64,000 bases of DNA from Malacoraja senta (Eukaryota), in contig CM075989.1 in assembly GCA_038087875.1 (NCBI GenBank), positions 8,682,001 through 8,746,000 on the forward strand. Reading direction: 5' to 3'. Shown here piece after piece: positions 1 through 47,847 of the stretch; the stretch's first letter is position 1, and every line of letters starts with the position of its first letter. The notes under the pieces are model-generated. The model ran no database searches. It saw nothing but the letters and a program-made list of their open reading frames with translations, and had not been told where the DNA came from. The translations under genes and the position numbers were made by a program.

Positions 1-268
1 GGTGCACGACCTTGCATCGCCTGGCGTGGCTTTAATGGCCGCGGGACAATCACCATCGCCCGCCGGGGGCTTTGACTTTGACTGACATCGGGGGGGGGGG
101 GGTGCAGTGGAGAGATACGTTTTTTTTGCCTTCCATCACAGCGCTGTGATGGATGTATGTGTAAATTGTGTTGTGTCTCGGGTCTTCTTCGTTTTGTATG
201 GCTGCAGAAACGATATTTCGTTTGGACCTCAACGGGGTCCAAATTACAAATATATTGTATTGTATTGT
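1..268 (+). mobile_element. 3' end of an unclassified retroposon with (TTGTA)n tail
   Basis: Terminal hairpin TTTGGACC..GGTCCAAA and tandem tail; shares TTGCCTTCCATCACAG with 42578-42970. Confidence 0.55.
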
Positions 269-294
269 CCTGATATACAAGTTTTAATACATGT

Positions 295-545
295 GAAGGA
301 ACTGCAGATGCTGGTTTAAAACAAAATGCTGGAGTAACTCAGCGGGATAGGCAGCATCTCTGGAGAGAAAGAATATGTGACGTTCCGGGTTGGTTCTTCA
401 GACTTTAAGAATACATGGTCTGTTCAGACCCAGGTCTGAATCATAGATGCTCTCAAAATGCTGGAGTTGCTGCCTGGCCCAGTGAGTTACTCCATTTTGT
501 GTCTATCTTTGGTGTGAACCAGCATCTACAGTTCTTTCCAACACA
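295..545. mobile_element. Inverted pair of Penelope-terminal repeats
   Basis: GAAGGAACTGCAGATGCTGG...TTCTTCAGACT followed by a reverse-oriented copy ending CCAGCATCTACAGTTCTTTC. Confidence 0.65.
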
Positions 546-1106
546 TTTTGTCTCAAATCTTAGGCTGGAATCTAACAAAACATTCCAAATTCTTGATAAT
601 GTTGAATACCTATAGTTGGTACAACTTGGCATTTTGAGTCTACTGACTGCTTTTTAGAATAATGAAAGGCAAAGTGACAATGGGAAAATGCTGGGAATTC
701 GTTGCCTATTAGTCAGTGTCGGTGCAAAGAGAGGCAGCACTAATCCTAAGTGTTCATGATTTTCTTCACTGGGCAGTGAGAAATCCGATATTTTCAGTTA
801 CAGTGGGAGAGGTGGTGAAAATGAAGTCAATATCTCCCATTAGGCTGGAGACCAAGAGACCTAATGGCACAAGCATTGGTGGTGTCTGCTGAGAGAGGAG
901 GCTGGCGTGTGGAACCACAGCTACCTGAAGGAGATGTCAATAAAGGCACTAGACTACCTCTGGAATATGGAGCAAAATAAACTGGTGGAGGAACTTGGTG
1001 GGTTAGGCCATATCTGTGGGAGCGATTAGCAGTTTCCCGTCAAACCTGTGTGTGTATATATATATATGTGTATGTATATATGTATATGTGTGTGTGTATA
1101 TATATA

Positions 1107-1401
1107 CGGTTCGAATCCCGCTTGGAGTGCATACTGTCGTTGTGTCCTTGGGCAAGACACTTCACCCACCTTTGCCTGCGTGTGAATGTGTGTGAGTGAT
1201 TGGTGATGGTCGGAGGGGCCGTAGGCGCAGATTAGCAGCCACGCTTCCGTCAGTCTGCCCCAGGGCAGCTGTGGCTACAGAAGTAGCTCACCACCACCGA
1301 GTGTGACTGAGGAGTGAATGAATAATGTGATGTAAAGCGCCTTGAGTATTAGAAAGGCGCTATATAAATCCCATCCATTATTATTATTATTATTATTATT
1401 A
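1107..1401 (+). mobile_element. 5'-truncated tRNA-derived SINE resembling teleost AFC/CORE-type SINEs, (TTA)n tail
   Basis: B-box GGTTCGAATCC, CORE-like GTGTCCTTGGGCAAGACACTTCACC, CAGGGCAGCTGTGGCTAC body, L2-type 3' stem TGTAAAGCGCCTTGAG...AAAGGCGCTATATAAAT; inserted in a (TG/TA)n tract. Confidence 0.75.
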
Positions 1402-2173
1402 TGTGTGTGTGTGTGTGTATATATATGTGTGTGTATATATATAAACCTGCATCGAGAGGGAGAGTTCTCATTGAAACCTGCGGAGAGTGAGTTCTTAAAC
1501 CGAGATAGATTCTCATTGAAACCTAGAGAGAGGTTCTCGTTGAAACCTGCACCGAGAGAGTAGTCATTGGGGTCGATGGTGGCGCTGCGAGTGGCTGCCC
1601 TGCCAGCAGCGTGTTTGTTATTTTGATAGAACCCAGGTCTCTGGTGCTGTAATGCAGCAACTCCACTGCTGCGCACTGTGCCACTCTAATTGGTGGAAAT
1701 AAAATAGTTTCAGCAATGTAATTTTGAGTTTATTTACACCACACTTCGCACAGCATTATTTTCCGTGCCTTGACCCTTGCGCCCCGCATGATAGTCAACT
1801 TTCTGCTTGAAAGATCGTTTCTCGCAATCCGAGCTGTAAAATATTTTGCCTTCATTTCACAAACTCATTTCAAAATATTTTCCACGACCAAGTGTTACTT
1901 TGTGGAGAATTTGGAACGGGGAGTTCTGGAAATGGTTGAAGAAATGCTTACTATTTGTTCATAGGTTGAGATCACTCTCTGGTTGATGAATGTAAGCAGT
2001 ACTTTCCCTGAAGTATCGTGAAAGTTTTGTTTCTACATTGTCATTCAGCCCAAATCTTAAGGACAATATCCACCCAGTGGCTTGCTTCAGCCCATTGTGC
2101 ATAGTATTTGGGAGTGGACCAGAAACCTGGTTGGATCAGAAGTCCTGCTGAGCATTTCAAGCACTCAAATTTT

Positions 2174-2849
2174 ACTAGGCCGAGGGGGGCCCTGTTGGGG
2201 CGGCCTGCGGCATCTCACACACACACAGACACACCACACCACCCCCCCCCCCTGCCATTGGTATATTAATATTATTCATTTACTCCTTTTACCCCATCCC
2301 CAGCCCTATCCACTCACGCATAGCCCCCAACTGTGCAGGCGCGGCTAGTGAGGGGGGTAGGGAGAGGGAGGGGGGTAGAGTTTGGGGGGTGGGGCGCGCG
2401 ACGTCACAGGTGAGGGCTGCTTCCCGAACGCAATACTCCACCACTCAACCATAGGTCCCAATACTCACCACTCCCTAGGGAGGGGGGGGGTAGAGAGGGA
2501 GGAGCGAGGCGGCGGGTGGGCGGTGAGCCGGGCGAGGCCGTGGGCGGCTGTGAATAACCTGGTGGGGGTGACATCCCTCGAAGCGCATGGATGATTCTGT
2601 GTGTGAGGCAGCGTCGAGCAGACCCATTATGACGTCATCAGCGAGAGCTGCTCGTTTAAATTCAAAGTCTTTTGATATTTTTTTAACATTTTCAGTAATG
2701 TCGAGAAATAAAGCATAAAATTTTCAGATAAGGTGGTTTTGGACTCGGCGGGAAAAATGCCAACCGGAATATGTAAATATTTTATCGTTACCGTGTACTT
2801 TTTTCACGAAGATGTAAATACATACATACAAGATCAGAGTTTTAATAGT
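2174..2849 (-). mobile_element. Unclassified GC-rich interspersed repeat, possibly a non-autonomous Helitron
   Basis: Minus strand ends with a short GC hairpin then CTAG|T; (TATG)n near the other end; no coding capacity seen. Confidence 0.35.
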
Positions 2850-3145
2850 GTCCATTGTCTTCTCCTTCAAAGTCCCGTTGGGATATCCTGCTGCTACGTA
2901 CCCTTGAGTAACTAACCCATAAACAGCCCTCAATCCCCTCCCCTGATACCTGTCTGACCTTGCATCAGTTTTCCACCATCCCCTCCATCTGGATTTTTTT
3001 CCTGGCCTCACAATTTGCAACTTTTCTATCTACGAGCTTCACAATTCGCAACTCTTTATACTTGGGCTTGCACCTGTCTTCATCTCTGGCCTTTCTCCAA
3101 TGATCTACCTATCAGAAAACTCTTGCCTGTGTTCATCTATAAACC

Positions 3146-3291
3146 GGGGTGGGAGATTGCAACCTTCACGTGGTCCGCCCTGTTTCGATGAATGCAATCA
3201 ACCCGGCGTGCACAATCAAATAAGATCAAATAGAACGAGTTGTCCTACAACTTTAGGCTGTGCACGCCATACGCAAGAAGAAGAGGAAGAC
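3146..3291 (+). mobile_element. Short non-LTR retroposon 3' fragment with (GAA)n tail (RTE-like, tentative)
   Basis: Ends ...CCATACGCAAGAAGAAGAGGAAGA; TSD CTATAAACC at 3137-3145 / 3292-3300; a second copy lies at 34914-34998 + 40942-40985. Confidence 0.7.
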
Positions 3292-6200
3292 CTATAAACC
3301 AGCCATGATCTGTCATGCCTCCCCTTCCAGCTTTCTTTCCCGCACCTCTCTCCTCCCCCCTCCCCCAATGCGATGGGTCTGAAGAACGGACTAGAAACAT
3401 CACCTATCCATGTTCCCCAAGGATGCTGCCTGACCCGCTGAGTTACTCCAGCAATTATGGTGTCTTGACTTTGTCAACCTTTATTTTGGACTAGACAGTA
3501 AGGGAGGCAGATGGGTTAACAGGGCCAGGCATCTATTTTGACTACTGTGTCCAGTGTGCACGGATGCTAGGATTTCCAGCACCATCGACTTGCTTGTAGT
3601 TGAACCACCTTCAGTCACTTGATTGTGTGTGAGATAGTAGTGCTCCTTGGCTTGGGCGTTGGATGGAGGCTTCCTGTATACTGCAGGAGAGGAAGGCAGA
3701 AGCTTGAATTGTGAATATTTGTGTTAGGGTTGGAAGGGCTTGTATCCCTGCTTGGTCAAGAAGAGTTTTGGCCAATTTGAAATCACTATAACAATTTGTG
3801 GGCTGCATTTGCAGAAATGGGTGGGACTTCCTCCAAAAACTTTGATGGATGTAAATATGATTTGGTAATGCCACATGGAAACCTTTTTCCTTCAATGGGT
3901 CTGAAGAACGGACTAGAAACATCACCTATCCATGTTTCCATAATCACAGATGACCCCAACAGCGGGAGCATTTTGTGAAAATTAGAATTTAAAATGATTT
4001 TGCTTGAGTATTTTGAGTTTGAAAGTGTTTTTGGCCTGGTGTACTGTAAATTTTACTTTCCACACTTGTGAACTGCATCAGGTGCAAAGTTCTTTCAGGT
4101 AATCTGCGATTGAATGTAAGTCCTTTTCAATGGTTTAAGTACAAATGTCCCTCCTGCAACACCACGCTCTCTCTGCAATGCCATCTCTCTAAGGGTAGTC
4201 TTATAGTGTGGAAACAACTTGCCCACACCGACCAACATGTCCCATCTATACTAGTCCCACCTGCCTGCATTTGGCCCATATCCCTCGAAGCCTATCCTAT
4301 CCATGAACCTGTTTAAATGTTTCTTAAACGTTGCGATAGTTCCTGCCTCAACTACCTCCACCGGCAGCTCGTTCCATACACCCACCACCCTTTTGTGTGA
4401 GGTTCACCTTTAGGAGGTTCAAATCCAGCTGTTGCTGATGTAACGTTTTCTGTTGACTGCAAGGATCTGGAACGAAGCTTCTGAATTGTCATGTTGCTTG
4501 ATCAACAGGACCCACCGTGGGGTTTGTGTTGTCTGTTTATTGGCCTTCTGGCCAGTTTGGTATGTTAGGGAAGTGTAACACCATGGGAGCGTTTTGTAGG
4601 CCTCTTAACTTTTGTCTCCTCGTCTGAATATTTTGTTCCAGTGGAGCCCCAGAGGTTTGCCGGGTTTTAAGTAAATGTTCCTGTTCGTTTGTTGATCTCG
4701 CATTGCTGATGTTAATAAACCGTGGTACTCTTGTTAAAATGTCAATACTGGTTACCCAATAGTTACAGAGCTCTCAACTAAAGAAACGTGACAGGATTAA
4801 TGAATAATTTCAGAAAAGCAAAAGTTTTAAGTGCATTTCTAACCTATTGAAACTATTCAAAGGTATATGTTGGATTGGAAAGGCTTGGAGGGATCTGGAT
4901 CTCAGCCAAGTGGGACATGCTTAGATGGGGTATCTTGGTTGGCATGGACAATTTTGGTTGATAGACCTGTTTCCATGCTCTGACTCCATGACACACCTTT
5001 AGAATAAGTCAAATAAATTTAGTGCTAAGCCTCTATAAAGGTCGGATGTCTAATAGTTTAGATACAGGTGGTCTGCAAAGCATAAGCGCAACAGAGAGTC
5101 TTTGGAAAGATATTCCCAGAAGTCATAACTGCTCAATGGTGGATGAGTGAAAGAAAACATAGCGGAATTACAAGAACACTTAAGTTATTGAAGGGTGACA
5201 CCGGGAACTCCAGATGCTGGAATCGTCAGCAAAACGCAGTGTTTGAGACTGAAAGGGGGTCCTGACCCGAAATGTCACCCGTCCATTTCCTCCACAGATG
5301 CTGCCTGGCCCGCTGAGTTCCTCCTGCTCTTTGTGTTTCACTTAAATTATTGAAGGTTGTTAGGGTTCGAGATGAGAGACAAACATTTGAATACATGGGC
5401 AATGACTTTGAGGTATTTTTCAGAGCCATTGGAATTCCGACTCCTAGCTGACCTTTGCTTGTTGATTTGGATGCTGGCGGTAATGTCTTTTGGGAAGAGT
5501 TAAAATTGTGTATAGAAATTACACCAGTTTTATTAGAAGAGGATGTATGTATTTGGTGCAGTTGATCACTGCATGGCACAGAGCCACATCAAGTTTGAGA
5601 TCCAAGTCCCACATCTCCTGGTGGTCAGATCTGTATTTGACATGGTTGGGAATGGGAGACCCGCCATGGCCAGTCACTTCACTACATATGTTGGATAAGG
5701 TTCAGCTTGGTTGAATATCCTGCCAATTCTTATACTCTTGGAGATATGGCTCACAAATATCCAAGCCCAGTAGAATTCCTAATGAGGATTTTGATCTTTT
5801 TAATTTTTACCTCGCATTGCTAGAGCAGATTAGGAGTTGTAAGGTGCGAATATGGGCTATTCGGCCCACTATGACCATGCTTATCATCCAAGTATCCGTC
5901 AATACTAATCCCATTTACTGGCACTTTGTCCGTAATAAGTGTTACCTATGTACCTGCCTCTTCTCATCCCCACACTTCATAAACTCTAGGAGCAGAATTA
6001 GGCCATTCTGCCCATCATGTCTACTCCGCTGTTCAATCATAGCTGATCTATCTTTCCCTCTCATCCCCATTCTCCTGCCTTCTCCCCATAACCTTTGACA
6101 CCCTTACTAATCAAGTACCCATCAATCTCTGCGTAAAAACATCTATTGACGGCCTCCACAGCCGTCTGTGGCTCCACTGATCTTATCCTGCCATGGCTGT

Positions 6201-8619
6201 ATACAAGCTGGTTGCCGTGCCTACTTCAAAGGTGTTATGTGTTACTCATGGTGTGTCCTGAAAGCAAAGGGAAGGGCACCATAAAACACAGCCCTGGCTT
6301 CCAAAACTTCGATAGAAAAGGATGTGGGTTGTATTGACATTTAAAAAAGAACAAAGTACAATTGTTGCTTTAAAAATTATGGCCTCGTTTTTGAAGACAT
6401 TGCCAGTTTGGCCAGAAATCCCACCTCGATGAGCAAGACTTTCTCCTGGGTACACAAAAGTGCTGGAGAAACTCGGCGGGTGCAGCAGCATCTATGGAGC
6501 GAAGGAAACATGCAACGTTTCGGGCCGATACACTTCACAACAGTGGAGTAGACAAAATTAAAAAAGATCAAAATCCTCATTAGGAATTCTACTGGGCTTG
6601 GATATTTGTGAGCCATATCTCCAAGAGTATAAGAATTGGCAGGATATTCAACCAAGACTTTCTCCTGCATGCCCTGGCATTGAAGTTTAGCTTCCTCCTG
6701 GTCTGACCTGACGCTGAACTTGTCTAGGGGGCTGGGTGATGAACTTCCAACGTTTCTAGGAAGGAACTGCAGGTGCTGGTTTACGCCAAAGATAGATACA
6801 AAATGCTGGAGTAATGCAGCAGGTCAGGAGCAAAGGAACAGGCAACGTTTTGGATCAAGACCCAGCTAGAGGTGTGAAGAGGTCCAGAACAAATCGGAGC
6901 CGACACCAATGATCCATTGTTAGCTGTGGAAGAGGTGATAACGAAGGGATATGAACAGTGAAACTAGCATGATGACAAGGGGGGGGTGGGGTGGAGGGGG
7001 TGGAGAGAGAGGTTACTTGAAATTAGAGAAATCAATATTCATACTGAAGATAGACACAATCTGGAGTAACTCAGCGGGACAGGCAGCATCTCTGGAGAGA
7101 AGGAATGGGTAACGTTTCGGGTCAAGAACCTTCTTCACATTCATACCGTTGAAGTCTCTGGCTTGAAATCTAGTTAATGCCTTCAGGGTGAAAATAAGTA
7201 TTGTGGGTTTTCTCATTTTAAAATACAAAGGAGTAGAGAGAATGGAAACCCTGATTAGGGTCATTAGCTCTTTTATAGACTGTTTAAAGTGGAGTAAGGA
7301 TTTTTATGTACAAAACCTGTTTGCAACAAGAAGTGACCAAATAAAATGCGATTGTTTATGGTTGTGTGCCTGTAGTTTATTCCATGAACAGTCAACACGT
7401 CACAGAGACAGTACAACACAAAACTCAGCTACGAAACACAAAAAAGATAATTGGTCCCAGCCTTGTGCTTTTCCTAATTCTTGCCGGGCTGTTCTTGTGT
7501 GCATTCTATCCCTTCTCTACCCTCTCCCTCCCCTGCCAAAGAGATCTCCCCTCTCTTTACACCACTTCTTTTAGCTTCCACTCCAGTTTTGGCACCAAAC
7601 TGTATGGATTGGTTGCAAGAACCCATGCAAACATGGGCACTTGACCCCAGCATATCTTGTGATGCTCTTCATTTTTTTAACGTCAATAACCAATATTTTC
7701 GATGCTGCTTTTTGCCTTCTCTCCCACGCAACATTACTAAGTTTCCCATTCTCCACGCAGCTTTGCTTATTGCAAAGTCCTCCTCTCTCCCTCTGGACTC
7801 TCTTTGACCAGTCCTTGTGCTCTTGCCAATTCTCTCAATGGCCACACTGTTCTGTGCTTTCGGCTACTTCTCTTCCCCACTCCCGCTTCCCCTGTATTGC
7901 GATCTCTCCACACCAGTTTCTCTTTTCCCCATATACAGGTCTAGACTGGTGTCCCAGTGCAGCTAGGTTGGATATTGGAGTAACACGGCATGGAAACTGT
8001 CCCGTTGTTCCGTCCATTCCATGCCAACCATCCAGAACCCATGTATACAATCCCATTTTACTTCGGCACTTGTTCCACTGTCTTCGATGACTTAAATTCC
8101 AGTGCTTATCTGATGCTTTAATTATTGAGATGACCTCCCTTCACCACCCCTTGGACAGTGCATATCACATCAAACAAATATTGAGCAAATCATCAGTGTC
8201 CCTTCAACTGCAACTTGTTATTGATCTGTGGACTGAGTGAATGGATTATTTATTGATGAACTGGATTTTGGAGAGCTTAACATCTGTAGGTTTAGATGCC
8301 ATTGTTGTGGCTACTTTTGATGCGAAAAATAACACTGAAGTTTAGAAATTACCTAGGTTTGCAGTTGTTGGTATTCAAAGGGTTTCTGTGGGTGTAAATC
8401 TGAGCTTAATCTGTACTAGAGCTTAAATAATAAATACCTTCTGTATCAAAACCTGGAAATCTGGAGAAAGAAATGCTGTAAGTACAGGTTTCTTCAATCT
8501 CAGTTCCAGTTCGCCAGATGCTGCCTGACATGCGGTGTATTTCCAGCACTTGTTTTTGGGTTCAGTCTGGTTAAGAGTGATCCTCTGGTCATGTAAAAGT
8601 GTGGTTGCTGCTCTCTTGA

Positions 8620-9075
<456 letters not shown>

Positions 9076-29200: not shown

Positions 29201-29226
29201 TAGCAGAGCAAGCTGGAAGAAGCAAC

Positions 29227-29415
29227 AGAAGACACAAAGTGCTGGAGTAACTCAGCAGGCCGGGCAGCATCTTTGGAGAACATGCATAGGTGATGTTTCA
29301 TAAGAGTCTTGACCCGAAAGGTCACCTATCCATGTTCTCCAGCTGCCTGACCTGCTGAGTTACTCCAGCACTTTGTCGATTTTTGTAAACCAGCAGCTGC
29401 AGTTCCTTGTTTCTA
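29227..29415. mobile_element. Inverted pair of Penelope-terminal repeats
   Basis: Imperfect palindrome; degenerate TSD CAAGCTGGAAGAAGCAAC / CAAGCCGGAAGAACAAC. Confidence 0.72.
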
Positions 29416-29788
29416 CAAGCCGGAAGAACAACATGGCTTGTGTTCTCATTTCTTTGAGCTCATTCACTCCAGACTAGTGGATCTCGACATTTTGTGGGAG
29501 GTCTTTTGTAATGTATGGGAAGACTGACACCAATTATGTGTTTAATTTCTCTGCTGTTTGTTTGCTCCTCATTATAACTTCTCCCCTGTGTGTCAACCAT
29601 TGTCGATAAGGTGAGCCTAGAAAACATAATTTCAGAATGGGTTTCAGTTGCTAAAGTATAAATAAAGTCTGTGACAAAATTTACTTGGACAAATAATCCA
29701 TTGCAGGATCAGCACCAACTAACCAGCAGAGTAATTTTCAGTTTGATGTCTGCTGTGCTGAGACTGGTAATATGAGCGACTGCAGATC

Positions 29789-34998: not shown

Positions 34999-35574
34999 TG
35001 TTAGGCGCTTTCCCCCCCTGGTGAATGCTATGTACTTACCTTTCTCTGTTTCTTTCCCGAGTGCAGGCCTTGTGGCTGTGAGTCTGGAATCAAGGGGTTA
35101 AAAGGCTCCTGTACCCGATTGGCCAAGCTGCGTCAGGTGACGGGTGACTCATCTGAAGCTTAAATAACAGAACTTCCCAGGATTCTCTCTTCGTCGACCC
35201 TGACTTGTGAGCTGACTGCTGGAGTGAGCTGCGGAAGGCCTGGCCACATGGCATAGAACTTTGTGTACTTTCACAATTAATTAGTAACAAATATTGAATT
35301 GGGACGGATAAGGGCTGACCTTAGTGTTTTCGTGTATTTTGTTTCAGGGTTATATCTTTTTAGGCAGGTTTTAGAGTCTAGTTCGACGGTCCATCACGTG
35401 GCTGGCTGGAGCACCGTTAAATCTTTTGTCAGTCCATCCATATCCCTGACTGGGTTGTTTGAATCAGGTTTGGGTTTTGTGTTCCATTGAGTAATTAAAC
35501 TATTTTTGAACTTGAACCTGGTTCTTGAGTTATGTTACGCGGCTCTGAAGTACCTGCATTCGAGAGTCGTAACA
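34999..35574 (+). repeat. 5' LTR (576 bp)
   Basis: Begins TGTTAGGCGC, ends GTCGTAACA; direct repeat of 40353-40936. Confidence 0.96.
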
Positions 35575-35577
35575 AAA

Positions 35578-35590
35578 TGGGGGCTCGTCC
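35578..35590 (+). promoter_or_regulatory. Primer binding site complementary to the 3' end of tRNA-Pro
   Basis: TGGGGGCTCGTCC 3 nt after the LTR; equals the first 13 nt of the classical tRNA-Pro PBS (TGGGGGCTCGTCCGGGAT). Confidence 0.9.
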
Positions 35591-35739
35591 TAAGTTTTGA
35601 GGACCCTAGATGTTTTTGGTTTATTTTTGGTAGGCTTCTGGTGACTGAGGAAGTCTGTGTTGTGAGGGAAATTTTTCTTCCCTGTTTGTGGTAGCATTGG
35701 TGCCATGGGTTTATCTGGTGGTTTGATGCTACATTTGAT

Positions 35740-37417
35740 ATGGAGTTTAAAGGGAAGGACTTTATTGAGGCTCCTAGTCGGGAGTTGTTTGATAAATGTA
35801 CGAAGGAGCATTTGATTTTTCTGGCAGAGAACTATGAAGTGCCTATTAACCCACATTCAAAGAAACAGTCCATTAAATCGGTGTTGTGGGCTGTGTTGGT
35901 GGAGGGTGGGGTTTTGCCTGGCTGTGCAGATAGTCCCACACCTTCTGTTCAGCCTGGTCAGGACATGGAGGCAGTCATTAGGTTGAAGGAGTTAGAGCTG
36001 GCTAGAGCAGAGATTCAGCTGCGTGAGGCAGGGATTAGGCTGCGGGAGAAGGAATTGGATGCCTCCCGGGTTTCTTCTAGGGAACGGGAGTTTGATATGA
36101 GCAAGAACATCCGCCTGGTTCCCCCCTTTAGTGAGAAGGATGTGGATAAGTTTTTCACAGTGTTTGAACGGGTGGCTGTGTCCTTGAAGTGGCCTAGGGA
36201 CGTGTGGACCTTGCTATTGCAGTGTGTCCTTGTGGGTAAGGCACGGGATGTGTACTCGTCTTTGTCTGTTGAAAGCAGCCTGGACTATGAGAGTGTGAAG
36301 TCTACAGTATTAAGGGCTTATGAATTAGTTCCAGAGGCGTACCGGCAGAAATTCTGGCGCTTTAGGAAGTTTGATAGTCAGACTTATGTGGAGTTTGCTA
36401 GGGAGAAGGAGGCAGTTTTTGACAGGTGGTGCGCTTCTCAAGGAGTGAAGGATGAAAGGCAACTGCGGGCCTTGATGATTATGGAAGACTTTAAGAACTG
36501 TCTGCCTGAGAGGGTTGCTACTTACCTTAATGAGCAGAAGGTGAATGAGGTGTCTAAGGCCGCGGTGTTGGCAGATGAGTATGTATTGACTCATAAAACT
36601 GATTTTGTTGGGCGCTCCTATAGTTTTGGTGCACGGCCGGTTGATCGTGGTGGTGTCGCCGGTGGCAGTGTCAAAGGTGTTTCTGTGCCTGCAAGTGGCA
36701 GCATGTTGATACAGGGGGAGGTCCGAGCTGATAAGGTTGACGGAAATTTGAGGACTAACGAAGGTCCTGTGTGCTACTATTGTGGAGGGAGAGGGCACAT
36801 GTTAAAGGCGTGTCCCGTTCTGAAGCAGAAAAATGCAAAGCCTGTGGCTTTGGTGGGTACGCAGAGGGCACCTGTGGTACCTGAGGTGCCTGAGTCTGAT
36901 GAGTGTAGGAATTATTCTGCGTTCATCATGAATGGTTTTGTTGCTCTGGAGGATGGGGGTGAGAGAGTTCCAGTATCCATCTTGCGTGATACTGGTGCTA
37001 CTCAGTCCTTTATATTGGAGAGTGTACTGCCGATTTCTGGGGAATCATCGGTTGGGTCAAGTGTTCCCTGTGGTAGGATTCGGGATGGATGACATGGTAG
37101 TGCCTTTGCATACCGTGAGTCTCGAGTCCGAGTTGGTTTCAGGCCGGGTAACTGTTGGGTTACGGACATGTTTTCCCGTTGGGGGAGTTTCTGTAATTTT
37201 GGGGAATGACTTGGCAGGAGGTAGAGTTTTAGTTACTCCTGAGGTGACGGCTGTTCCGATGGTGCAGAGTCCTGATAGATTGGCTATGCAGCATCCGAGG
37301 GTCTTCGCAGCTTGTGCTGTCACGAGGGCTATGGCTAAGAGCCAGGCGAAGTTTGAGGATGTAGTGGACATGAGTGAGAGCATTTTGGGGCTCAGGATGA
37401 GGGATCCTGTGTTGTGA
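35740..37417 (+). pseudogene. gag-pro: Gag (SCAN-like capsid CTD, CCHC knuckle CYYCGGRGHMLKAC) + aspartic protease (LRDTGA), with a frameshift at ~37067
   Basis: ORF 35740-37092 plus continuation in the 36932-37417 frame (VVGFGMDDMVVPLH...ILGNDLAG). Confidence 0.9.
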
Positions 37418-40270
37418 AGGGTGTTTCTACATCTCAAGATGGGATAGTGTCTGGAAATGTGCCGGTGTCGCTGTCACGTGACCGGCAGGTTGAGGAGCAA
37501 AAGAGTGATCCAGGTTTATCTGAGCTGTTCGACTGCGCGGTGCCTGAGGGGGATATGGATTCCACAGAAAAGGGGTATTTTCTAAGGGAGGGCTTACTGA
37601 TGCGAAAGTGGTCTCCCTTGGATATATCTGGGCATGATGATTGGAGCGTGGTTGATCAGATTGTGATACCTCGTCGGTATAGGGACGAGATACTCTGTTT
37701 GGCTCATGATGGTCCTCTGGGTGGACATTTGGGAGTCAATGAGACATATGACCTTATCTTATGGAATTTTTTTTGGCCAGGTTTGAAAAAGGACGTGAAA
37801 CAGCAGTGCAGGTGTTGTCACATTTGCCAGGTGGCAGGAAAGCCGAACCAATCGATTGTTCCTGTGCCTTTATATCCAATCCCAGTGGTCGGTGAGCCGT
37901 TTGAGCGGATTTTTGTTGATTGTGTGGGTCCTCTACCTCGGACAAAGGTGGGCAACAAGTTTTTATTGACAATTATGTGTGCGTCTACCCGCTTTCAGGA
38001 GGTGGTCCCTTTGCGTAGAATTACTGCCCCTACCATTGTGAAGTCACTCGCTAAGTTTTTTTCGTTGTTCGCTTTGCCCAAGGTTGTGCAGAGTGACCAA
38101 GGTTCCAACTTCATGTCGAAGGTTTTTGGTCAGGTAATGAAGTTGTTAGATATTAAGCATTGTTACTCCAGTGCGTATCACCCTGAGAGCCAGGGAGCTC
38201 TCGAGAGGTTTCACCAGACTTTGAAATCTATGTTGAGGACTTACTGCCTGGAGTTTGAAAAAGACTGGGATGAGGGGGTTCATCTAGTTATGTTTGGGGT
38301 GCGTGAGGTCATGCAGGAGTCTTTAGGGTTCAGTCCTGCTGACCTGGTGTTCGCGCATACTGTACGTGGTCCGTTGAGGGTCCTAAAGGAGAAATGGTTG
38401 AAGGAGGATACAAAACGTAGTATTTTAGACCACGTCTGTACCTTTCAGTCTAGACTGAAGAGGGCATGCGAACTGGCAATGGGTAATCTTGCTTCTGCTC
38501 AGTCTAGGATGAAGGGGTGGTTCGACAGGAAGGCTTCTAGTAGGAATTTTTCTCCAGGTGACAAGGTCCTGGTGTTGTTGCCTATTCCTGGTTCCAGTCT
38601 GCAGGCTCGGTATCAGATGGTTAAGAAGGTTGGTGAAAGGGATTATGTTATTGGTACCCCTGATCGAAGGCGTAAGACTCAGCTCTGTCATGTCAACATG
38701 ATGAAGCAGTACCATGAGCAGGAGCCTGTGGAGGTTGATGGGGAGGTGCTGTGTCCTTCGGTTTTGTCTAAGCCTGTTTTGGCTGCAGTGGTGCTGCCCC
38801 CTGACACGGGTGGTGATGTGGGTGAGGCACGGCTGTCGGTGGCAGTGACGCAGGGAAGGCTGTGTAACTCTGAGGCTTTGGAGTCGCTTCCCTTGCAGTT
38901 GTCTCATTTGACTGAAAGTCAGCGGGGTGATCTGCTTGCTTTGGTGGAGTCAAATGGGTCACTGTTCTCGGATGTGCCTTCTCAGACGTCTGTGCTGCAG
39001 CATGACATTGACGTGGCCGGTGCTGCGCCAATTAAACAGCATCCGTATTGGGTCAACCCTGACAGGCATCATCGTCTAGGGAGTCAGGTTGACTATATGC
39101 TGCGGCATGGCATTGCTGAATCTAGTTGTAGTCCGTGGAGTTCTCCGTGTCTACTGGCTACGAAGGCTAATGGGGAGGACAGGTTTTGCACGGACTTTCG
39201 GAAAGTGAATGGTGTAACTAAGCCGGATTGCTATCCTCTCCCACGAATGGAGGATTGCGTGGATCGTGTGGGAAGTGCATCTTTTGTGTCTAAGTTGGAC
39301 TTGTTAAAAGGGTATTGGCAAGTTTCTTTGACTAGGCGGGCGAGGGCGTTCGTTACGCCTGATAACTTTCTTCAGTATACAGTAATGGCATTTGGGATGC
39401 GCAATGCGCCGGCAACCTTCCAACGGTTGGTGAACATTGTATTGTCTGGTTTGTCCTTCTGTGAGGCATACCTTGATGATTTGGTTGTGTGCTCCAGGTC
39501 GTGGATCGAACACATCGGTCATCTGAAGGAGGTATTTCATCGTCTAGCAGAGGCAAAACTAACAATCAATCTGGGGAAGTGTGAGTTTGGCCAGGCCACG
39601 GTAACGTATCTGGGTAAGGTGGTGGGCCGGGGTCAGGTTCGCACTCTCAAGGAAAAGGTGGGGCATATTGTCGCATTTCCTGCTCCAACCTCGAGGACTG
39701 AACTCCGTAGGTATCTGGCTATGGTTGGGTACTATAGAGGATTCTGTCCAAACTTCTCTGCGGTGGCTGCCCCTTTGACGGATTTGCTGAGTCCGAAGGT
39801 AGCTTTTGTGTGGTCCGCAGAGTGTCAACAAGCCTTTGATCATACTAAAAGTCTTCTGGTGCGCGCACCTGTGCTGGCGGCACCTGATTTTGAGCGTCCA
39901 TTTAAGCTGGCAGTGGATGCCAGTGATCGTGGGGTTGGGGGAGTTCTTCTACAGGATGATTCAGATGGGGTGGAGCATCCAGTTTCGTACTTCTCTAAGA
40001 AGTTTAATCGTCATCAGAAGTGGTACTCCACCATTGAGAAAGAAGCCCTTGCTATTTTAATGTCTGAATCATTTTGAGGTTTATGTTGGCTCCTCGAATG
40101 TCCCTGTCATCGTACTCACGGATCATAATCCGTTGGTATTTTTGCATAATATGAAGAATAAGAACCGGCGGTTAATGAGCTGGAGTTTGCAGCTGCAAGA
40201 CTACAACCTGGAGGTCAGGCATATCCGTGGCAACGATAATGTCTTGGCTGACGCCTTGTCGCGCCAGTAG
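37414..40270 (+). pseudogene. pol: Pol: integrase (HHCC; DDE at VDCVGP, SDQGSNF, LERFH), then RT (YLDD at 39469-39480), then RNase H (DAS...E...TDH...ADALSR), with a frameshift at ~40065
   Basis: ORF 37414-40077; the RNase H C-terminus HFEVYV...LTDHNPL...NVLADALSRQ* continues in another frame to TAG at 40268-40270. Confidence 0.93.
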
Positions 40271-40343
40271 AGTTTTAGCTCCTGAATAGTTTCTGGGATT
40301 TGGTGGTGTTTTTTCTCTCTTCCAAAACTTATTCAGTATCTTT

Positions 40344-40352
40344 GGGTGGGGG
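40344..40352 (+). promoter_or_regulatory. Polypurine-tract-like G run
   Basis: GGGTGGGGG immediately before the 3' LTR. Confidence 0.75.
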
Positions 40353-40936
40353 TGTTAGGCGCTTTCCCCCCCCTGGTGAATGCTATGTACTTACCTTTCT
40401 CTGTTTCTTTCCCGAGTGCAGGCCTCGTGGCTGTGAGTCGGGAATCAAGGGGTTAAAAGGCTCCTGTACCCGATTGGCCAAGCTGCGTCAGGTGATGGGT
40501 GACTCATCTGAATCTTAAATAACAGAACTTCCCAGGATTCTCTCTCTTCTTCGTTGACCCTGACTTGTGAGCTGTCTGCTGGAGTGAGCTGCGGAAGGCC
40601 TGGCCACATGGCATAGAACTTTGTGTACTTTCACAATTAATTAGTAACAAATATTGAATTGGGACGGATAAGGGCTGACCTTAGTGTTTTCGTGTATTTT
40701 GTTTCAGGGTTATATCTTTTTAGGCAGGTTTTACAGTCTCTGGTTCGACGGTCCATCACGTGGCTGGCTGGAGCACCGTTAAATTGTTTGTCAGTCCATC
40801 CATATCCCTGACTGGGTTGTTTGAATCGGGTTTGGGTTTTGTGTTCCATTGAGTAATTAAACTATTTTTGAACTTGAACCTGGTTCTTGAGTTATGTTGC
40901 GCGGCTCTGAAGTACCTGCATTCGGGAGTCGTAACA
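40353..40936 (+). repeat. 3' LTR (584 bp)
   Basis: Direct repeat of 34999-35574; by eye about 13 substitutions and 3 small indels. Confidence 0.96.
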
Positions 40937-43081: not shown

Positions 43082-45335
43082 TTTTTTTAATTTAAATTTT
43101 TATTAGAGGTATCTGCATATCATAGTCCAAACCAATACAAACTTTGTTTAACGATTACATATTAAGTATCCAGGGTTCCGGGGATCCAGTTACCAAAGTA
43201 GCTGGGATCCTCCTTTATCGGTTACATATTAACATTACCTCTAATTATTTATTTATGTTTATAGATAAGAAATAAAGAGAAGAAATTAGAAAAAAAATAA
43301 GATAAACTATCAATAATACAACTTAGGAGATAGGTCTGTAGGTCAGAAAACATAACTAATCATCTAGTCCTGGGTTCAGGTTTCAGTCAGGCCTTGCACC
43401 GGCCCAGTTTACCCCTTCATATAATCTATAAATGGAGACCATATTTTAGTAAATAATTCTGGTTTGTCAATTAAGACATATCTAATTTTTTTCCAAATGT
43501 AAGGTCTCCGACATCTCCATAATCCACATCTTAAATGTGGGGGTTGCAGTATTTTTCCAAAATTTTAATATGAATTTTTTCCCAATTATTATACTGTAAT
43601 CAAGGAAATTTCTTTGGTTTGTTGTAAATTTTAGGTATTGTTCTGATATGCCCAATATTATTAATTTAGGATCGGGATCCAGTTGAGTATTAACAACTAC
43701 AGAGATTATTTTAAAAATATCCATCCAGTAATTTTTAATTTTTATACAATTTACAAAAGTATGGGTTAAATTAGCCGCCGAGTATTGGCATTTATCACAG
43801 ATAGGAGAGATATTAGGAAAGATTCTATTTAATTTTGTTTTTGAATAATGCAGTCTATAGTCTATGTAGTACTTTAAATTGTATTAAAAAATGTCTGGTA
43901 TTTAATGAACATTGATGTATATGTTGTAGACTTTCTTCCCAAATATCTTTTGTTATAGGTTGGGCTAATTCCTTTTCCCATGCTAGTCTATATAATTCCG
44001 TCGACGGAATCTCACTGTCTAAAAGAGTATTACAAATGTAAGATATTAATTTATCTGTATTAGGGTGTTTATTCAAACGTTCATCTAGAATCTCTGGTTC
44101 TCTAGTTCTGTATTCTTGTGTATGTGATTTAACATCATCTTTAAGTTGTAAGAATCTAAAAAAAATATTTGAATGTAATCCATAATTCAGTTGTAGTTCC
44201 TGAAACGAGAGAAAAATACAATTTCTATAAAGATGTCCCATCTTTTTAATTCCATGATTTTTCCATTGTACAAAACCTTTATCCAACACTGAGGGTTTAA
44301 ATGAAGGATTATTTGCAATGGGGAGAGAAAGTGATAAATTATCCAATTTTTTAGGTGTCTCCAAATTCGAATACCACTATATATTATAGGGTTTTCACTA
44401 TAGATTTTTAAATTCAATTTTGTAGGAGCTAACCGGATCGGCCCAATTTCAAAAGGCAAACAATCTTCCTTTTCCATCTTTAACCAGTCTGGTTGTTGAT
44501 CCATATCTTCCAACCAAACATTCGTATTTTTGACATTAACTGCCCAAAAATAAAATAAACAATTTGGTAAAACTAATCCTCCTTTGGTCTTGGGTTTGCA
44601 TAGGTGTTTTTTGCTTATTCTGTGGTTCTTATAATCCCAAATAAAACTTGTCACTATAGAGTCAACTTTAAAAAAAACATTTTTTGGGAGATATATCGGA
44701 ATTGATTGAAAAAGTTATAGCAATTGCGGAAGGAAAATCATTTTTATAGCATTAACTCTACCGAGCATTGAAATGAGAAGTGTTTTCCAGTATTGGATAT
44801 TCTTATGCAATTTATTAAGTAAAGGCATGAAATTTGATTTTAATAAAGAAGTATATTTCTTTGTCACATAAATTCCAAGGTATTTAAATTTTTCATTGAC
44901 TATTCTAAAAGGTGAGTGTTGCAATATATATGAGTTGGGTTCCGTTATTGACATAATCTCACTTTTATTCCAATTAATTCTATATCCCGAAAATAAACCA
45001 AATTGAGTTATAAGATGTAACAAGTTTGGGATGCTGACTTCTGGATTTGTAATATATAATAATACATCGTCTGCATATAGAGAGATTTTATTAACTGTAT
45101 TTTTAGTTTTATACCCATATATTTCTGGATGTACTCTAACTCTTTCTGCTAGTGGTTCAATAGCGAGGGCAAATAGTAACGGGCATCCTTGTCTGCAACC
45201 TTTAGATAAATCACATTTTGTTGATAACATTTAATTTGTCATTATTCTAGCTGTTGGGTTAGTGTATAACAGCTTAACCCATGTGCAAAACCTCTCACCC
45301 AATTGAAAATTTTCCATCACCGAAAATAAATAGGG
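43082..45335 (-). mobile_element. 5'-truncated, degenerate L1-clade LINE (ORF2 RT domain to C-terminal Cys knuckle, 3' UTR, A-tail)
   Basis: Minus-strand fragments CRQGCPL..LFALAIEPLA, KISLYADDVLLY, KYLGI, KGGLVLP, CDKCQYSAANLTHTFVNC; several stops and frameshifts; AATAAA + A-rich tail near 43082-43104. Confidence 0.9.
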
Positions 45336-46613: not shown

Positions 46614-46852
46614 ATTAAATGTATCAATTAAATTAATTTGTATTAAAAGGTTGGTTAAATCATTCATTGCTCTGGAGAAATGGTGGAAAAAGGGTTAGAG
46701 TTTCTTCAGCTCCATTCTCAGTCTCACTTCCAGAGACACTTTAGAATGAAATACTTTTGGCTTGTGTGAAAAATAATAAGTTAGATTGTAAACTACTTGA
46801 GTGGAACATGGATCCATTCTTCCTTCCTCTCTTGTCTCCGTCTTTACCCTAA

Positions 46853-47347
46853 AGGGCCTGTCCCACGGGCATGCGACTGCATGCGGCAAGCACGACCTAA
46901 CGTGGTCGCTTGAGCCGTACGGCCTCGCGGGGCCGGTCCCACTTCGATTGCCGGAGCCGTATGGAGTTGTGCGGAGCTGGTCCCGACATCGCGCGGGGCT
47001 CCGAAAAACTGACACTGTTCAAAATTCCGTGCGGCAACGGCCTGCCGGCCCGCAGCCGCCTCGACGCCGTACGCACCGCCTCGACGGGCGTGCGCGCCAT
47101 CTTGACGCCGTACGCAGCGTCTTGACGCCGTACGTCACGCGCGAACTTCCCGCGGACTTCGCTCGAACTTCACGTCACTCACTCGACCTCCGCGCGGCCC
47201 CCGTTTCCGGTTTGGTCGCGCTCACCCCATGCAGTCGCACGCTGATGGGACCGTCTCTGTACGGGGATCACTCGACCTCCGCGCGGCCCCCACTTCTGGT
47301 TTGGTCGCGCTTGCCGCATGCAGTCGCATGCTCGTGGGACAGGCCCT
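46853..47347. mobile_element. Non-autonomous DNA transposon (MITE), PIF/Harbinger-like
   Basis: About 45-bp TIRs (AGGGCCTGTCCCACGGGCATGCGACTGCATGCGGCAAGC / GCTTGCCGCATGCAGTCGCATGCTCGTGGGACAGGCCCT) and TAA TSD at 46850-46852 / 47348-47350; CpG-rich. Confidence 0.85.
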
Positions 47348-47847
47348 TAACACTTCGTTTTTCCTCACTCATCCTGTGTTTCACACTAATTGACCTGATC
47401 AACAATGAGAACAATTCCATTAGCAGCTGTAGAAACACTGGTGCATACAGTTATTGTTTGCATAAATCACAGCTACTTAATTATGCTAAACATCACCACT
47501 TTGTTCACTGCATAAATTAATTTGAAATTGTTCTATATTTCCTATTTTGTGCTTGTGCACGTTAGTTCATTTATGTTATTTATCACTCAAATCATTGTTC
47601 TTTCATCAGGGCATCCTTCACAATATAATCACCTCCTGCACCTCATCCATTCAATTATGTTATAGTAGCCCTGTAAGAACTTGGAAGAGAAGATTGATAC
47701 ATTAGCTTCCATTTACATAGCTCCTTTAACATCCCAAAGTGCTTCACAGAATACAATCTGGCTCCACGCAACCTAAAGAGATATTAGGGCAGATGACCTC
47801 CTTGTCTAAAAGACATTGAGATAATTTATTCTAAACACTTTTCTAAA

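What the first reader, a model, noticed from the sequence alone, without database searches (positions are those of the whole stretch)
5706..6667. Template-switch insertion: Penelope-terminal cDNA joined to an inverted copy of nearby ANP32A intron
Seen: a 15-bp TSD CAAGACTTTCTCCTG (6434-6448 / 6653-6667) encloses three parts. First, an antisense Penelope-terminal unit (6449-~6529) stopping in the hammerhead stem II. Second, a ~25-nt linker. Third, a ~100-bp inverted copy (6554-6656) of unique intron sequence 5706-5807, identical except for one homopolymer indel and joined to the second TSD through CAAG microhomology. Inference: RT primed at 6448, stalled at the ribozyme hairpin and jumped to a plus-sense template ~650-750 nt upstream, an orientation consistent with nascent ANP32A pre-mRNA or the + DNA strand. 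The result is a ~100-bp stem that can form in the pre-mRNA.
Basis: partly seen in the sequence, partly recalled or inferred. Interest (0 to 1): 0.7.

Follow-up and report, generated by a model that had tools for sequence, protein, structure and literature searches.

The report
Penelope insertion with copied neighbouring DNA
A short piece of a jumping gene (likely Penelope-type) sits in what is likely the first intron of ANP32A next to two backwards copies of nearby host DNA, all absent in two related species, and it most likely arose when the newly made DNA strand folded back and copied its own flank, a junction error already described for other retrotransposons.

Summary
The structure is real. 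An exact 15-bp target-site duplication encloses an 88-nt hammerhead-bearing repeat end (6449-6536) and a 103-nt inverted copy of single-copy sequence 5706-5807 (102/103). Two corrections. The repeat runs through stem II into the ribozyme core. The 'linker' is a second inverted local copy (6539-6554 = 6018-6033, 15/16). Two related species, 5-6% diverged, have the empty site without any of the insert, so neither refutation condition was met. Both copied pieces come from the + strand on the cDNA side, nearer piece first. That is what a cDNA 3' end snapping back on its own resected flank would give, so orientation cannot favour pre-mRNA. Three of four other TSD-bounded family insertions in the window carry an inverted arm made of element sequence; here the arm is host DNA. 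R2 (snap-back onto nearby target DNA) and L1 (inverted duplications and locally templated pieces) have published equivalents. I found none for Penelope-like elements in three searches. Verdict: a new variant of a known junction class, one event, template probably DNA. Nascent-RNA templating is not excluded (about 15%).

The parts
6434..6448 (+). First copy of the 15-bp target-site duplication; its 3' end is the inferred primer of cDNA synthesis
   Evidence: D9; single copy in organisms B and C (C inferred from depth arithmetic)
6449..6536 (-). Short hammerhead-bearing repeat end, likely Penelope-type, RNA sense on the - strand. Starts at the family's tail-less start, includes stem II, ends inside the CUGAAGA core, so the ribozyme core is incomplete
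   Evidence: 83/88 identical to 59664-59751; alignments
6537..6538 (.). One or two bases not assigned to any template
   Evidence: in-register comparison
6539..6554 (-). Short inverted copy of 6018-6033 (15/16), the supposed linker
   Evidence: (I5)
6554..6656 (-). Long inverted copy of 5706-5807 (102/103, one extra A); 1-nt overlap with the short copy, 4-nt overlap (CAAG) with the second TSD
   Evidence: (I1)
6653..6667 (+). Second copy of the target-site duplication
   Evidence: D9; junction present in organism A contigs (records 8 and 16)
5706..5807 (+). Single-copy source of the long inverted copy; present once in organisms B and C
6018..6033 (+). Source of the short inverted copy, inside an old high-copy repeat fragment; carries three bases that the other aligned window copies do not share as a set
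   Evidence: repeat depth
8755..8904 (+). ANP32A coding exon (LRR region, from about residue 19), fixing the direction of transcription
   Evidence: E 3.8e-23 to 2jqd_A; acceptor context
54879..55093 (.). Comparator: same young subfamily, 15-bp TSD, 35-nt tail, perfect fold-back centred on stem II; second arm ends at the same start position as 6449
59664..59753 (+). Comparator: simple copy with the full minimal hammerhead core and a 13-bp TSD (1 mismatch)

Best explanation
This is likely a single insertion of a Penelope-type repeat end in which the free 3' end of the new cDNA likely folded back onto its own single-stranded left flank and copied two pieces of host DNA backwards before joining the other broken end. 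Steps: (1) a staggered cut leaves 15-nt 3' overhangs (TSD shown; cut inferred). (2) The + strand 3' end at 6448 primes reverse transcription at the family's tail-less start and makes 88 nt, ending in the hammerhead core (sequence shown; enzyme inferred). (3) The - strand left of the cut is resected or displaced for at least 730 nt, exposing the + strand (inferred). (4) The cDNA end primes at 6033, copies 16 nt, jumps 210 nt further along the same strand and copies 5807 to 5706 (pieces, side, orientation and order shown; direction of synthesis inferred). (5) The new end CAAG pairs with the last four bases of the other overhang, and fill-in completes the TSD (overlap shown; annealing inferred). 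Whether the element's own reverse transcriptase or a host repair polymerase did step 4 is open.
For: Empty site without any part of the insert in organisms B and C (records 23 and 31). All parts lie inside one exact TSD and the long copy abuts it through CAAG. Both templates are on the cDNA-bearing side, inverted and nested, nearer piece first. That is the geometry of cis snap-back (PMC5728401 and PMC5068794, passages). In complex polymerase-theta inserts one flank supplied the template in 16 of 17 cases, and one base pair sufficed to prime. R2 insertions have a snap-back class in which the cDNA 3' end primes on cDNA or, less often, nearby rDNA (PMC11371274, passages). L1 insertions with an inverted duplication or several local pieces are described (PMC11702581, section 7 and Fig. 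S9C/S10B legends). Of 5 TSD-bounded family insertions found in the window, 4 have an inverted arm: 3 of element sequence, this one of host sequence.
Against: The sequence cannot tell single-stranded + DNA from + sense RNA. The two inner junctions have only 0-1 nt of in-register homology. Synthesis passed a 5-nt match to the TSD end at 5736-5740 before using the 4-nt one at 5706. Distances (415 and 641 nt) and length (102 nt) far exceed typical worm polymerase-theta inserts (about 85% prime within 10 bp, mean insert about 10 bp). The repeat part has 5 substitutions in 88 nt against 0 in the two 102-nt arms (Fisher p 0.002, or 0.010 counting the indel), so one event needs a diverged template or error-prone copying. 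At 55 kb the second arm ends at a standard start position, which points to priming from the other end in that case. In the L1 cases the authors assign the local rearrangement to the reciprocal end, not the cDNA end. The inner junctions were not among the contig rows shown, and X1 contig 2 runs unbroken through 5807.
Confidence: 0.55

Rival explanations
1. One reading: the element's reverse transcriptase left its own RNA and jumped, twice, onto nascent ANP32A pre-mRNA lying upstream of the break.
For: Both templates are + sense, upstream, and in 3'-to-5' order along the would-be transcript. A Penelope-like RT starts internally on RNA without homology to the primer (PMC11167929, parts 1-2 of 4), which fits 0-1-nt junctions. 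Template switches between RNAs occur for L1.
Against: DNA snap-back predicts the same geometry and has direct precedent. No splice junction or other RNA-only mark is in the copied pieces. Intronic position is inferred only, since exon 1 is not in the window.
Confidence: 0.15
2. Twin priming: the other 3' end (- strand, ending in CTTG) primed at 5706-5709 on the - strand of the left flank or its sister chromatid, copied 5710-5807 and then 6018-6033 towards the break, and was joined to the cDNA. Pre-mRNA could not be the template in this case.
For: The only substantial microhomology (4 nt) is at the 3' terminus of that end. PAc cuts and extends both strands in vitro. In the 55-kb copy the second arm ends at a standard start position at the TSD edge. 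L1 local rearrangements are assigned to the reciprocal end.
Against: It needs the - strand of the left flank as an exposed template, which is the strand that resection removes. Cis snap-back of the right end would copy the right flank, and trans annealing to the left overhang would give a direct, not inverted, copy (inference from strand geometry). A longer 5-nt site at 5736 was not used.
Confidence: 0.17
3. Two events: an older plain insertion with TSD, then a later break at its far edge repaired with locally templated filler.
For: 5/88 substitutions in the repeat part against 0/204 in the arms.
Against: The filler ends exactly at the TSD edge with the TSD intact. The lineage branch since the split from B and C (at least 1.4% from rows shown, at most about 2.75%) gives only 1.2-2.4 expected changes in 88 nt (P of 5 or more 0.009-0.10), so age alone explains the excess poorly and a diverged template is needed anyway. 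Some variant bases occur in other window copies.
Confidence: 0.1
4. Assembly artefact or chance.
For: No contig shown spans the whole insert; inner junctions are not in the rows shown; run X1 may be the assembly's own sample.
Against: Both outer junctions lie in error-free contigs of organism A, the right one in two samples. Contigs break 30 nt inside the repeat at 5735 and 6627, as a real two-copy repeat would cause. X1 holds 0.83 of the sampled words.
Confidence: 0.03

Closest known systems
R2 'snap-back' 5' junctions (Zhang et al. 2024, PMC11371274; passages seen)
   Same: After target-primed cDNA synthesis the cDNA 3' end primes more DNA synthesis on the cDNA or, less often, nearby target DNA before the far junction forms.
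   Different: R2 protein, engineered transgenes in human cells, fixed rDNA site. Here a natural germline event of a Penelope-type repeat, two serial jumps 415-740 nt away, inside a 15-bp TSD.
L1 insertions with local inverted duplication or templated genomic pieces (Mendez-Dorantes et al. 2024, PMC11702581; section 7 and legends of Figs S9C, S10B seen)
   Same: TSD-bounded insertion holding reverse-transcribed sequence plus one or several pieces copied from DNA near the site, including an inverted duplication of about 100-130 nt.
   Different: L1 ORF2p with poly-A priming; authors assign the copying to the reciprocal end. Here no poly-A, and the template lies on the cDNA side.
Inverted 5'-truncated arm, tail and host-DNA capture of endonuclease-bearing Penelope-like elements (PMC8557442 and PMC3846280, passages; PMC11167929)
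   Same: Short TSD, two start positions about 35 nt apart (tail), hammerhead in the terminal repeat, inverted second arm at the far junction.
   Different: The described inverted arm is element sequence, and the described captured host DNA lies between terminal repeats. An arm copied from the target's own flank was not found in the passages or searches.
Polymerase-theta / SD-MMEJ templated insertions by snap-back (PMC5068794, PMC5728401; passages)
   Same: Reverse-complement copy of the same-side flank, 1-nt priming, repeated primer-template switches, slippage in a base run, final microhomology.
   Different: Typical inserts are about 10 nt and primed within 10 bp of the break; here 16 and 102 nt from 415 and 641 nt away.

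Membership tests
Penelope-like element (EN+) terminal fragment | Linked ORF with telomerase-like RT and GIY-YIG endonuclease | not testable with these tools
   No genome is held. 13 window ORFs scanned, none PLE-type; the RT near 45 kb is L1-like. Family assignment rests on the features below and on recall.
Penelope-like element (EN+) terminal fragment | Minimal hammerhead (CUGANGA, unpaired base, stem II, GAAA, minimal helix III, NUH) | tested here: met
   Descriptor matches the sister copy at 59659 and two others, as in PMC4209133 (part 1 of 4). Stem II is 88.6% paired in 12 copies, with no two-sided covariation. Rfam finds nothing. The focal copy itself lacks most of the core.
Penelope-like element (EN+) terminal fragment | Two RT start positions 30-40 nt apart (tail) | tested here: met
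   Starts lie about 85 and 119-120 nt from the start of stem II; PAc starts at 111-118. Joints from other loci land on 6449 and 6757-6759 in all four runs (table 5).
Penelope-like element (EN+) terminal fragment | Short TSD and frequent inverted 5'-truncated partner | tested here: met
   5 TSD-bounded insertions (13-21 nt) from 30 intervals searched; 3 with an element-derived inverted arm.
Penelope-like element (EN+) terminal fragment | Self-cleavage or mobilisation by a PLE protein | not testable with these tools
   Needs in vitro assay.
cDNA snap-back junction (R2 class) | [quoted passage not shown] | tested here: met
   6539-6554 and 6554-6656 are reverse complements of 6018-6033 and 5706-5807.
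cDNA snap-back junction (R2 class) | The cDNA end, not the other end, was the primer, and the template was DNA | tested here: inconclusive
   Side and order fit; direction of synthesis and template chemistry cannot be read from one locus.
Polymerase-theta templated insertion | Templates within tens of bases of the break, short inserts | tested here: not met
   415 and 641 nt away, 102 nt long, against about 85% within 10 bp in worms.
Polymerase-theta templated insertion | One-flank, repeated switches with at least 1-nt homology; final microhomology | tested here: inconclusive
   One flank, 1 nt at the second switch, 4 nt at the end, none assignable at the first switch.
RT template switch to host RNA | Copied piece carries an RNA-only mark (splice junction, RNA end, editing) or shows sense-strand bias across loci | not testable with these tools
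   No such mark in the two pieces; only one locus, no genome.

The most novel reading that the evidence does not exclude
The Penelope-type reverse transcriptase hops serially, with almost no homology, onto the nascent host transcript at the insertion site and writes pieces of it back as local inverted duplications. A family with very many copies would then be an RNA-templated source of new long intronic hairpins in this lineage.
Probability: 0.15. Interest if true: 0.7.

Novelty: new variant of a known kind. Interest (0 to 1): 0.33.

Why it matters
How Penelope-like elements finish an insertion and build their inverted arms is still open (PMC8557442, PMC11167929). This locus is a clean natural case, with empty sites in two relatives, where the inverted arm is host flank rather than element. 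It shows that the arm is made at the target and that at least 730 nt of flank, or its transcript, is accessible during integration. It also defines a simple genome-wide strand test that separates DNA snap-back, twin priming and nascent-RNA templating. As a single event with published R2 and L1 equivalents and no sign of function, it is of modest interest by itself.

Tried and rejected
No genome is held for this window, so the genome-wide strand test could not be run. No RNA holder was listed; this says nothing about expression or editing of the stem. Zero depth at 6580-6627 in organisms B and C was not used as evidence, because X1, which has the insert, also shows 0.92 there; the contig joins were used instead. 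Rfam found no family in the window at gathering score and only two chance-level hits at 59550-59850. Single-strand folds of the hammerhead copies were no better than shuffles (z 0.57 and 0.90). Pattern scans for more family loci gave 0 and then 1 hit in metagenome contigs (L001, a 20-nt match, not examined) and 0 in viral contigs. The RT fragment at 44718-45230 was checked as a possible Penelope ORF and is L1-like. A local template for 6529-6538 was sought; only 7-8-nt chance-level matches appeared, so this stretch is read as diverged element (6 of 8 bases match). Reading 6548-6557 as a restart of the element (it resembles the unit's start over 10 nt) was considered; it leaves the rest of the 16-nt match unexplained and was ranked lower. 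The inverted pair at 46852-47348 is the terminal repeat of a DNA-transposon-like element, not a similar event. ANP32A exon 1 was not found in 1-8755. Look-ups of earlier findings by place, by sequence and by two word sets were empty. Paper searches for a Penelope case with flank-derived inverted copies found none, and one for nascent-RNA templating returned 0; the library lacks most subscription papers.
Full report
Observation. The 15-nt direct repeat at 6434-6448 and 6653-6667 is exact. 6554-6656 is the reverse complement of 5706-5807 at 102 of 103 columns; the one gap is an extra A in an A run. The last four bases of this copy, CAAG, are also the first four of the second TSD. 5706-5807 occurs nowhere else in the window. 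A + strand exon at 8755-8904 encodes ANP32A (E 3.8e-23 to PDB 2jqd_A; acceptor). No first exon was found in 1-8755, so 'intron 1' is inferred.

Two corrections. First, the repeat part matches the copy at 59664-59751 over 6449-6536 (83 of 88). It covers both strands of hammerhead stem II and stops inside the CUGAAGA core, not at about 6529; the end is uncertain by 1-2 nt. Second, the linker is templated: 6539-6554 is the reverse complement of 6018-6033 at 15 of 16, the mismatch being a CpG transition. It is the only window match with fewer than 4 mismatches. The source lies in an old high-copy repeat, but the linker carries three bases of the local copy (6018, 6030, 6031) that none of the other aligned window copies shows as a set (11 hits including the local copy; 8 others span all three columns). 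Analytical chance within 1 kb is 5e-5; the empirical rate is 7 of about 1,500 random 16-mers.

Empty site. A search of public runs listed 24; I laid 4. In organism B one 441-nt contig lies on 6151-6440 and continues at 6659-6781 with one letter between. The whole insert is absent and the site differs by about 2 nt from a single TSD copy. In organism C a 470-nt contig ends at 6434. Its second piece was not among the rows shown, but the depth bins (31.4, and 14.4 = 31.4 x 22/48) imply that it resumes at 6654, which is exactly one TSD copy. B and C are 5.3% and 5.8% diverged from the window here and hold the source region once, in unbroken contigs. In organism A, X1 contigs cover the left junction (6144-6473) and the right junction (6627-6784) without differences, and X2 covers the right one. 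No empty allele appeared in the rows shown. Limits: X1 may be the assembly's own sample, the inner junctions were not displayed, X1 contig 2 runs unbroken through 5807 (its depth 49.3 against 33-44 for its neighbours fits partial doubling), and most table rows were cut.

The family. 31 merged hits of the unit lie in the window. A minimal hammerhead descriptor matches three copies, including 59659. Stem II is 88.6% paired across 12 copies but shows no two-sided covariation, and Rfam has no match. Copies begin at two positions about 35 nt apart, 85 and about 119 nt from the start of stem II. Joints from other loci land on the same two positions in all four runs (table 5). This matches the two RT start sites and tail of the anole element PAc (111-118 nt; PMC11167929, parts 1-2 of 4 read). 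No linked RT-GIY-YIG ORF could be tested. Of 30 intervals searched for TSDs, 9 gave a repeat. These make 5 insertions (5.2 kb, this one, 29.3 kb, 55 kb, 59.7 kb) plus one repeat at 61.4 kb that I dropped as too far from the ends. One is simple, three have an inverted second arm of element sequence, and this one has an inverted arm of host sequence.

Mechanism. 6449 is a standard start, so the + strand end at 6448 is the likely primer. Both host pieces are copies of the + strand on the primer's side, nested and nearer piece first, so on one strand they form two stacked stems. A cDNA end that snaps back on its own resected flank gives exactly this. Snap-back of the other end would copy the right flank, and trans annealing would give a direct copy (inference from strand geometry; definitions in PMC5728401 and PMC5068794, passages). 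Nascent pre-mRNA gives the same geometry, so orientation does not decide between RNA and DNA. I put DNA snap-back of the cDNA end at 0.55, priming by the other end on the - strand at 0.17, pre-mRNA at 0.15, two events at 0.10 and artefact at 0.03. The polymerase is open. Junction homology of 0-1 nt fits either a Penelope-like RT or polymerase theta, but distance and length are far outside typical worm polymerase-theta inserts.

Results against this reading. The repeat part has 5 substitutions in 88 nt while the arms have none in 204 (Fisher p 0.002; 0.010 with the indel). The lineage branch gives only 1.2-2.4 expected changes (the lower figure comes from the 12 shared differences in the rows shown), so age alone explains this poorly; a diverged template or error-prone copying is assumed, not shown. 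Four of the five changes lie in the last 28 nt. A 5-nt match to the TSD end at 5736 was bypassed. At 55 kb the second arm ends at the standard start, which suggests priming from both ends in that copy.

Comparison with what is known. R2 insertions have a snap-back class, priming on cDNA or less often on nearby rDNA (PMC11371274, passages). L1 insertions with an inverted duplication, or with up to four local pieces, are described (PMC11702581: abstract, passages, section 7, and part 3 of 4 of a cut supplementary file). Penelope-like elements are known for inverted truncated arms, tails, short TSDs and capture of host DNA (PMC8557442 and PMC3846280, passages) and for minimal hammerheads (PMC4209133, part 1 of 4; no mention of sharks or skates in its main text). 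Searches for a Penelope case with a flank-derived inverted arm found none; unread supplements of these papers and papers outside the library may hold one. All other papers were seen as listings only. Earlier AI notes on shark Penelope mini-insertions agree that the inverted arm is built at insertion; they are leads, not support.

Function and verdict. The RNA is predicted to fold into a 103-bp stem plus a 16-bp stem. The ribozyme core in this copy is incomplete. Similar stems from the same family are common in the window, and there is no evidence of selection, so a neutral insertion scar is the likely status. Real feature; new variant of a known junction class; interest 0.33. The boldest reading not excluded is serial jumping of the RT onto nascent host RNA (probability 0.15, interest 0.7 if true).

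Noticed in passing
window 54879-55093: Young family copy that is a near-perfect palindrome (arms differ at 1 of 75) centred on hammerhead stem II, inside a 15-bp TSD; one arm has the 35-nt tail, the other ends at the tail-less start.
   Followed up: yes
window 5177-5359 and 29209-29429: Older TSD-bounded head-to-head pairs of the same family (TSD about 20 nt and 13 nt or more); the first lies 350 nt from the source of the long inverted copy.
   Followed up: partly
window 62358-62555, 52311-52666, 295-539: Further inverted pairs of family units, at least the first two meeting at or near the hammerhead; no TSD recovered by the script.
   Followed up: partly
window 34999-40936: LTR retroelement with 96% identical terminal repeats, a 465-aa ORF (SCAN, zinc knuckle) and an 899-aa ORF with integrase before RT, an order recalled as Gmr1-like; looks young.
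   Followed up: partly
window 46852-47348: GC-rich element with 50-nt terminal inverted repeats (94%) flanked by TA, likely a small non-autonomous DNA transposon.
   Followed up: no
window 3373-3417 and 3895-3939: A 45-nt direct repeat (97.8%) 520 nt apart holding the same short-stem hammerhead variant; possibly another local copy event.
   Followed up: no
window 5988-6115 (table 5): Contigs from other loci join this high-copy repeat near 6091-6126 to the family's start positions in all four runs, which suggests a preferred insertion zone within that repeat.
   Followed up: no
window 44718-45230 (-): L1-like reverse transcriptase fragment (E about 1e-33 to L1 ORF2p), unrelated to the nearby hammerhead units.
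   Followed up: yes
window 63432-63631: 200-nt assembly gap (N run).
   Followed up: no
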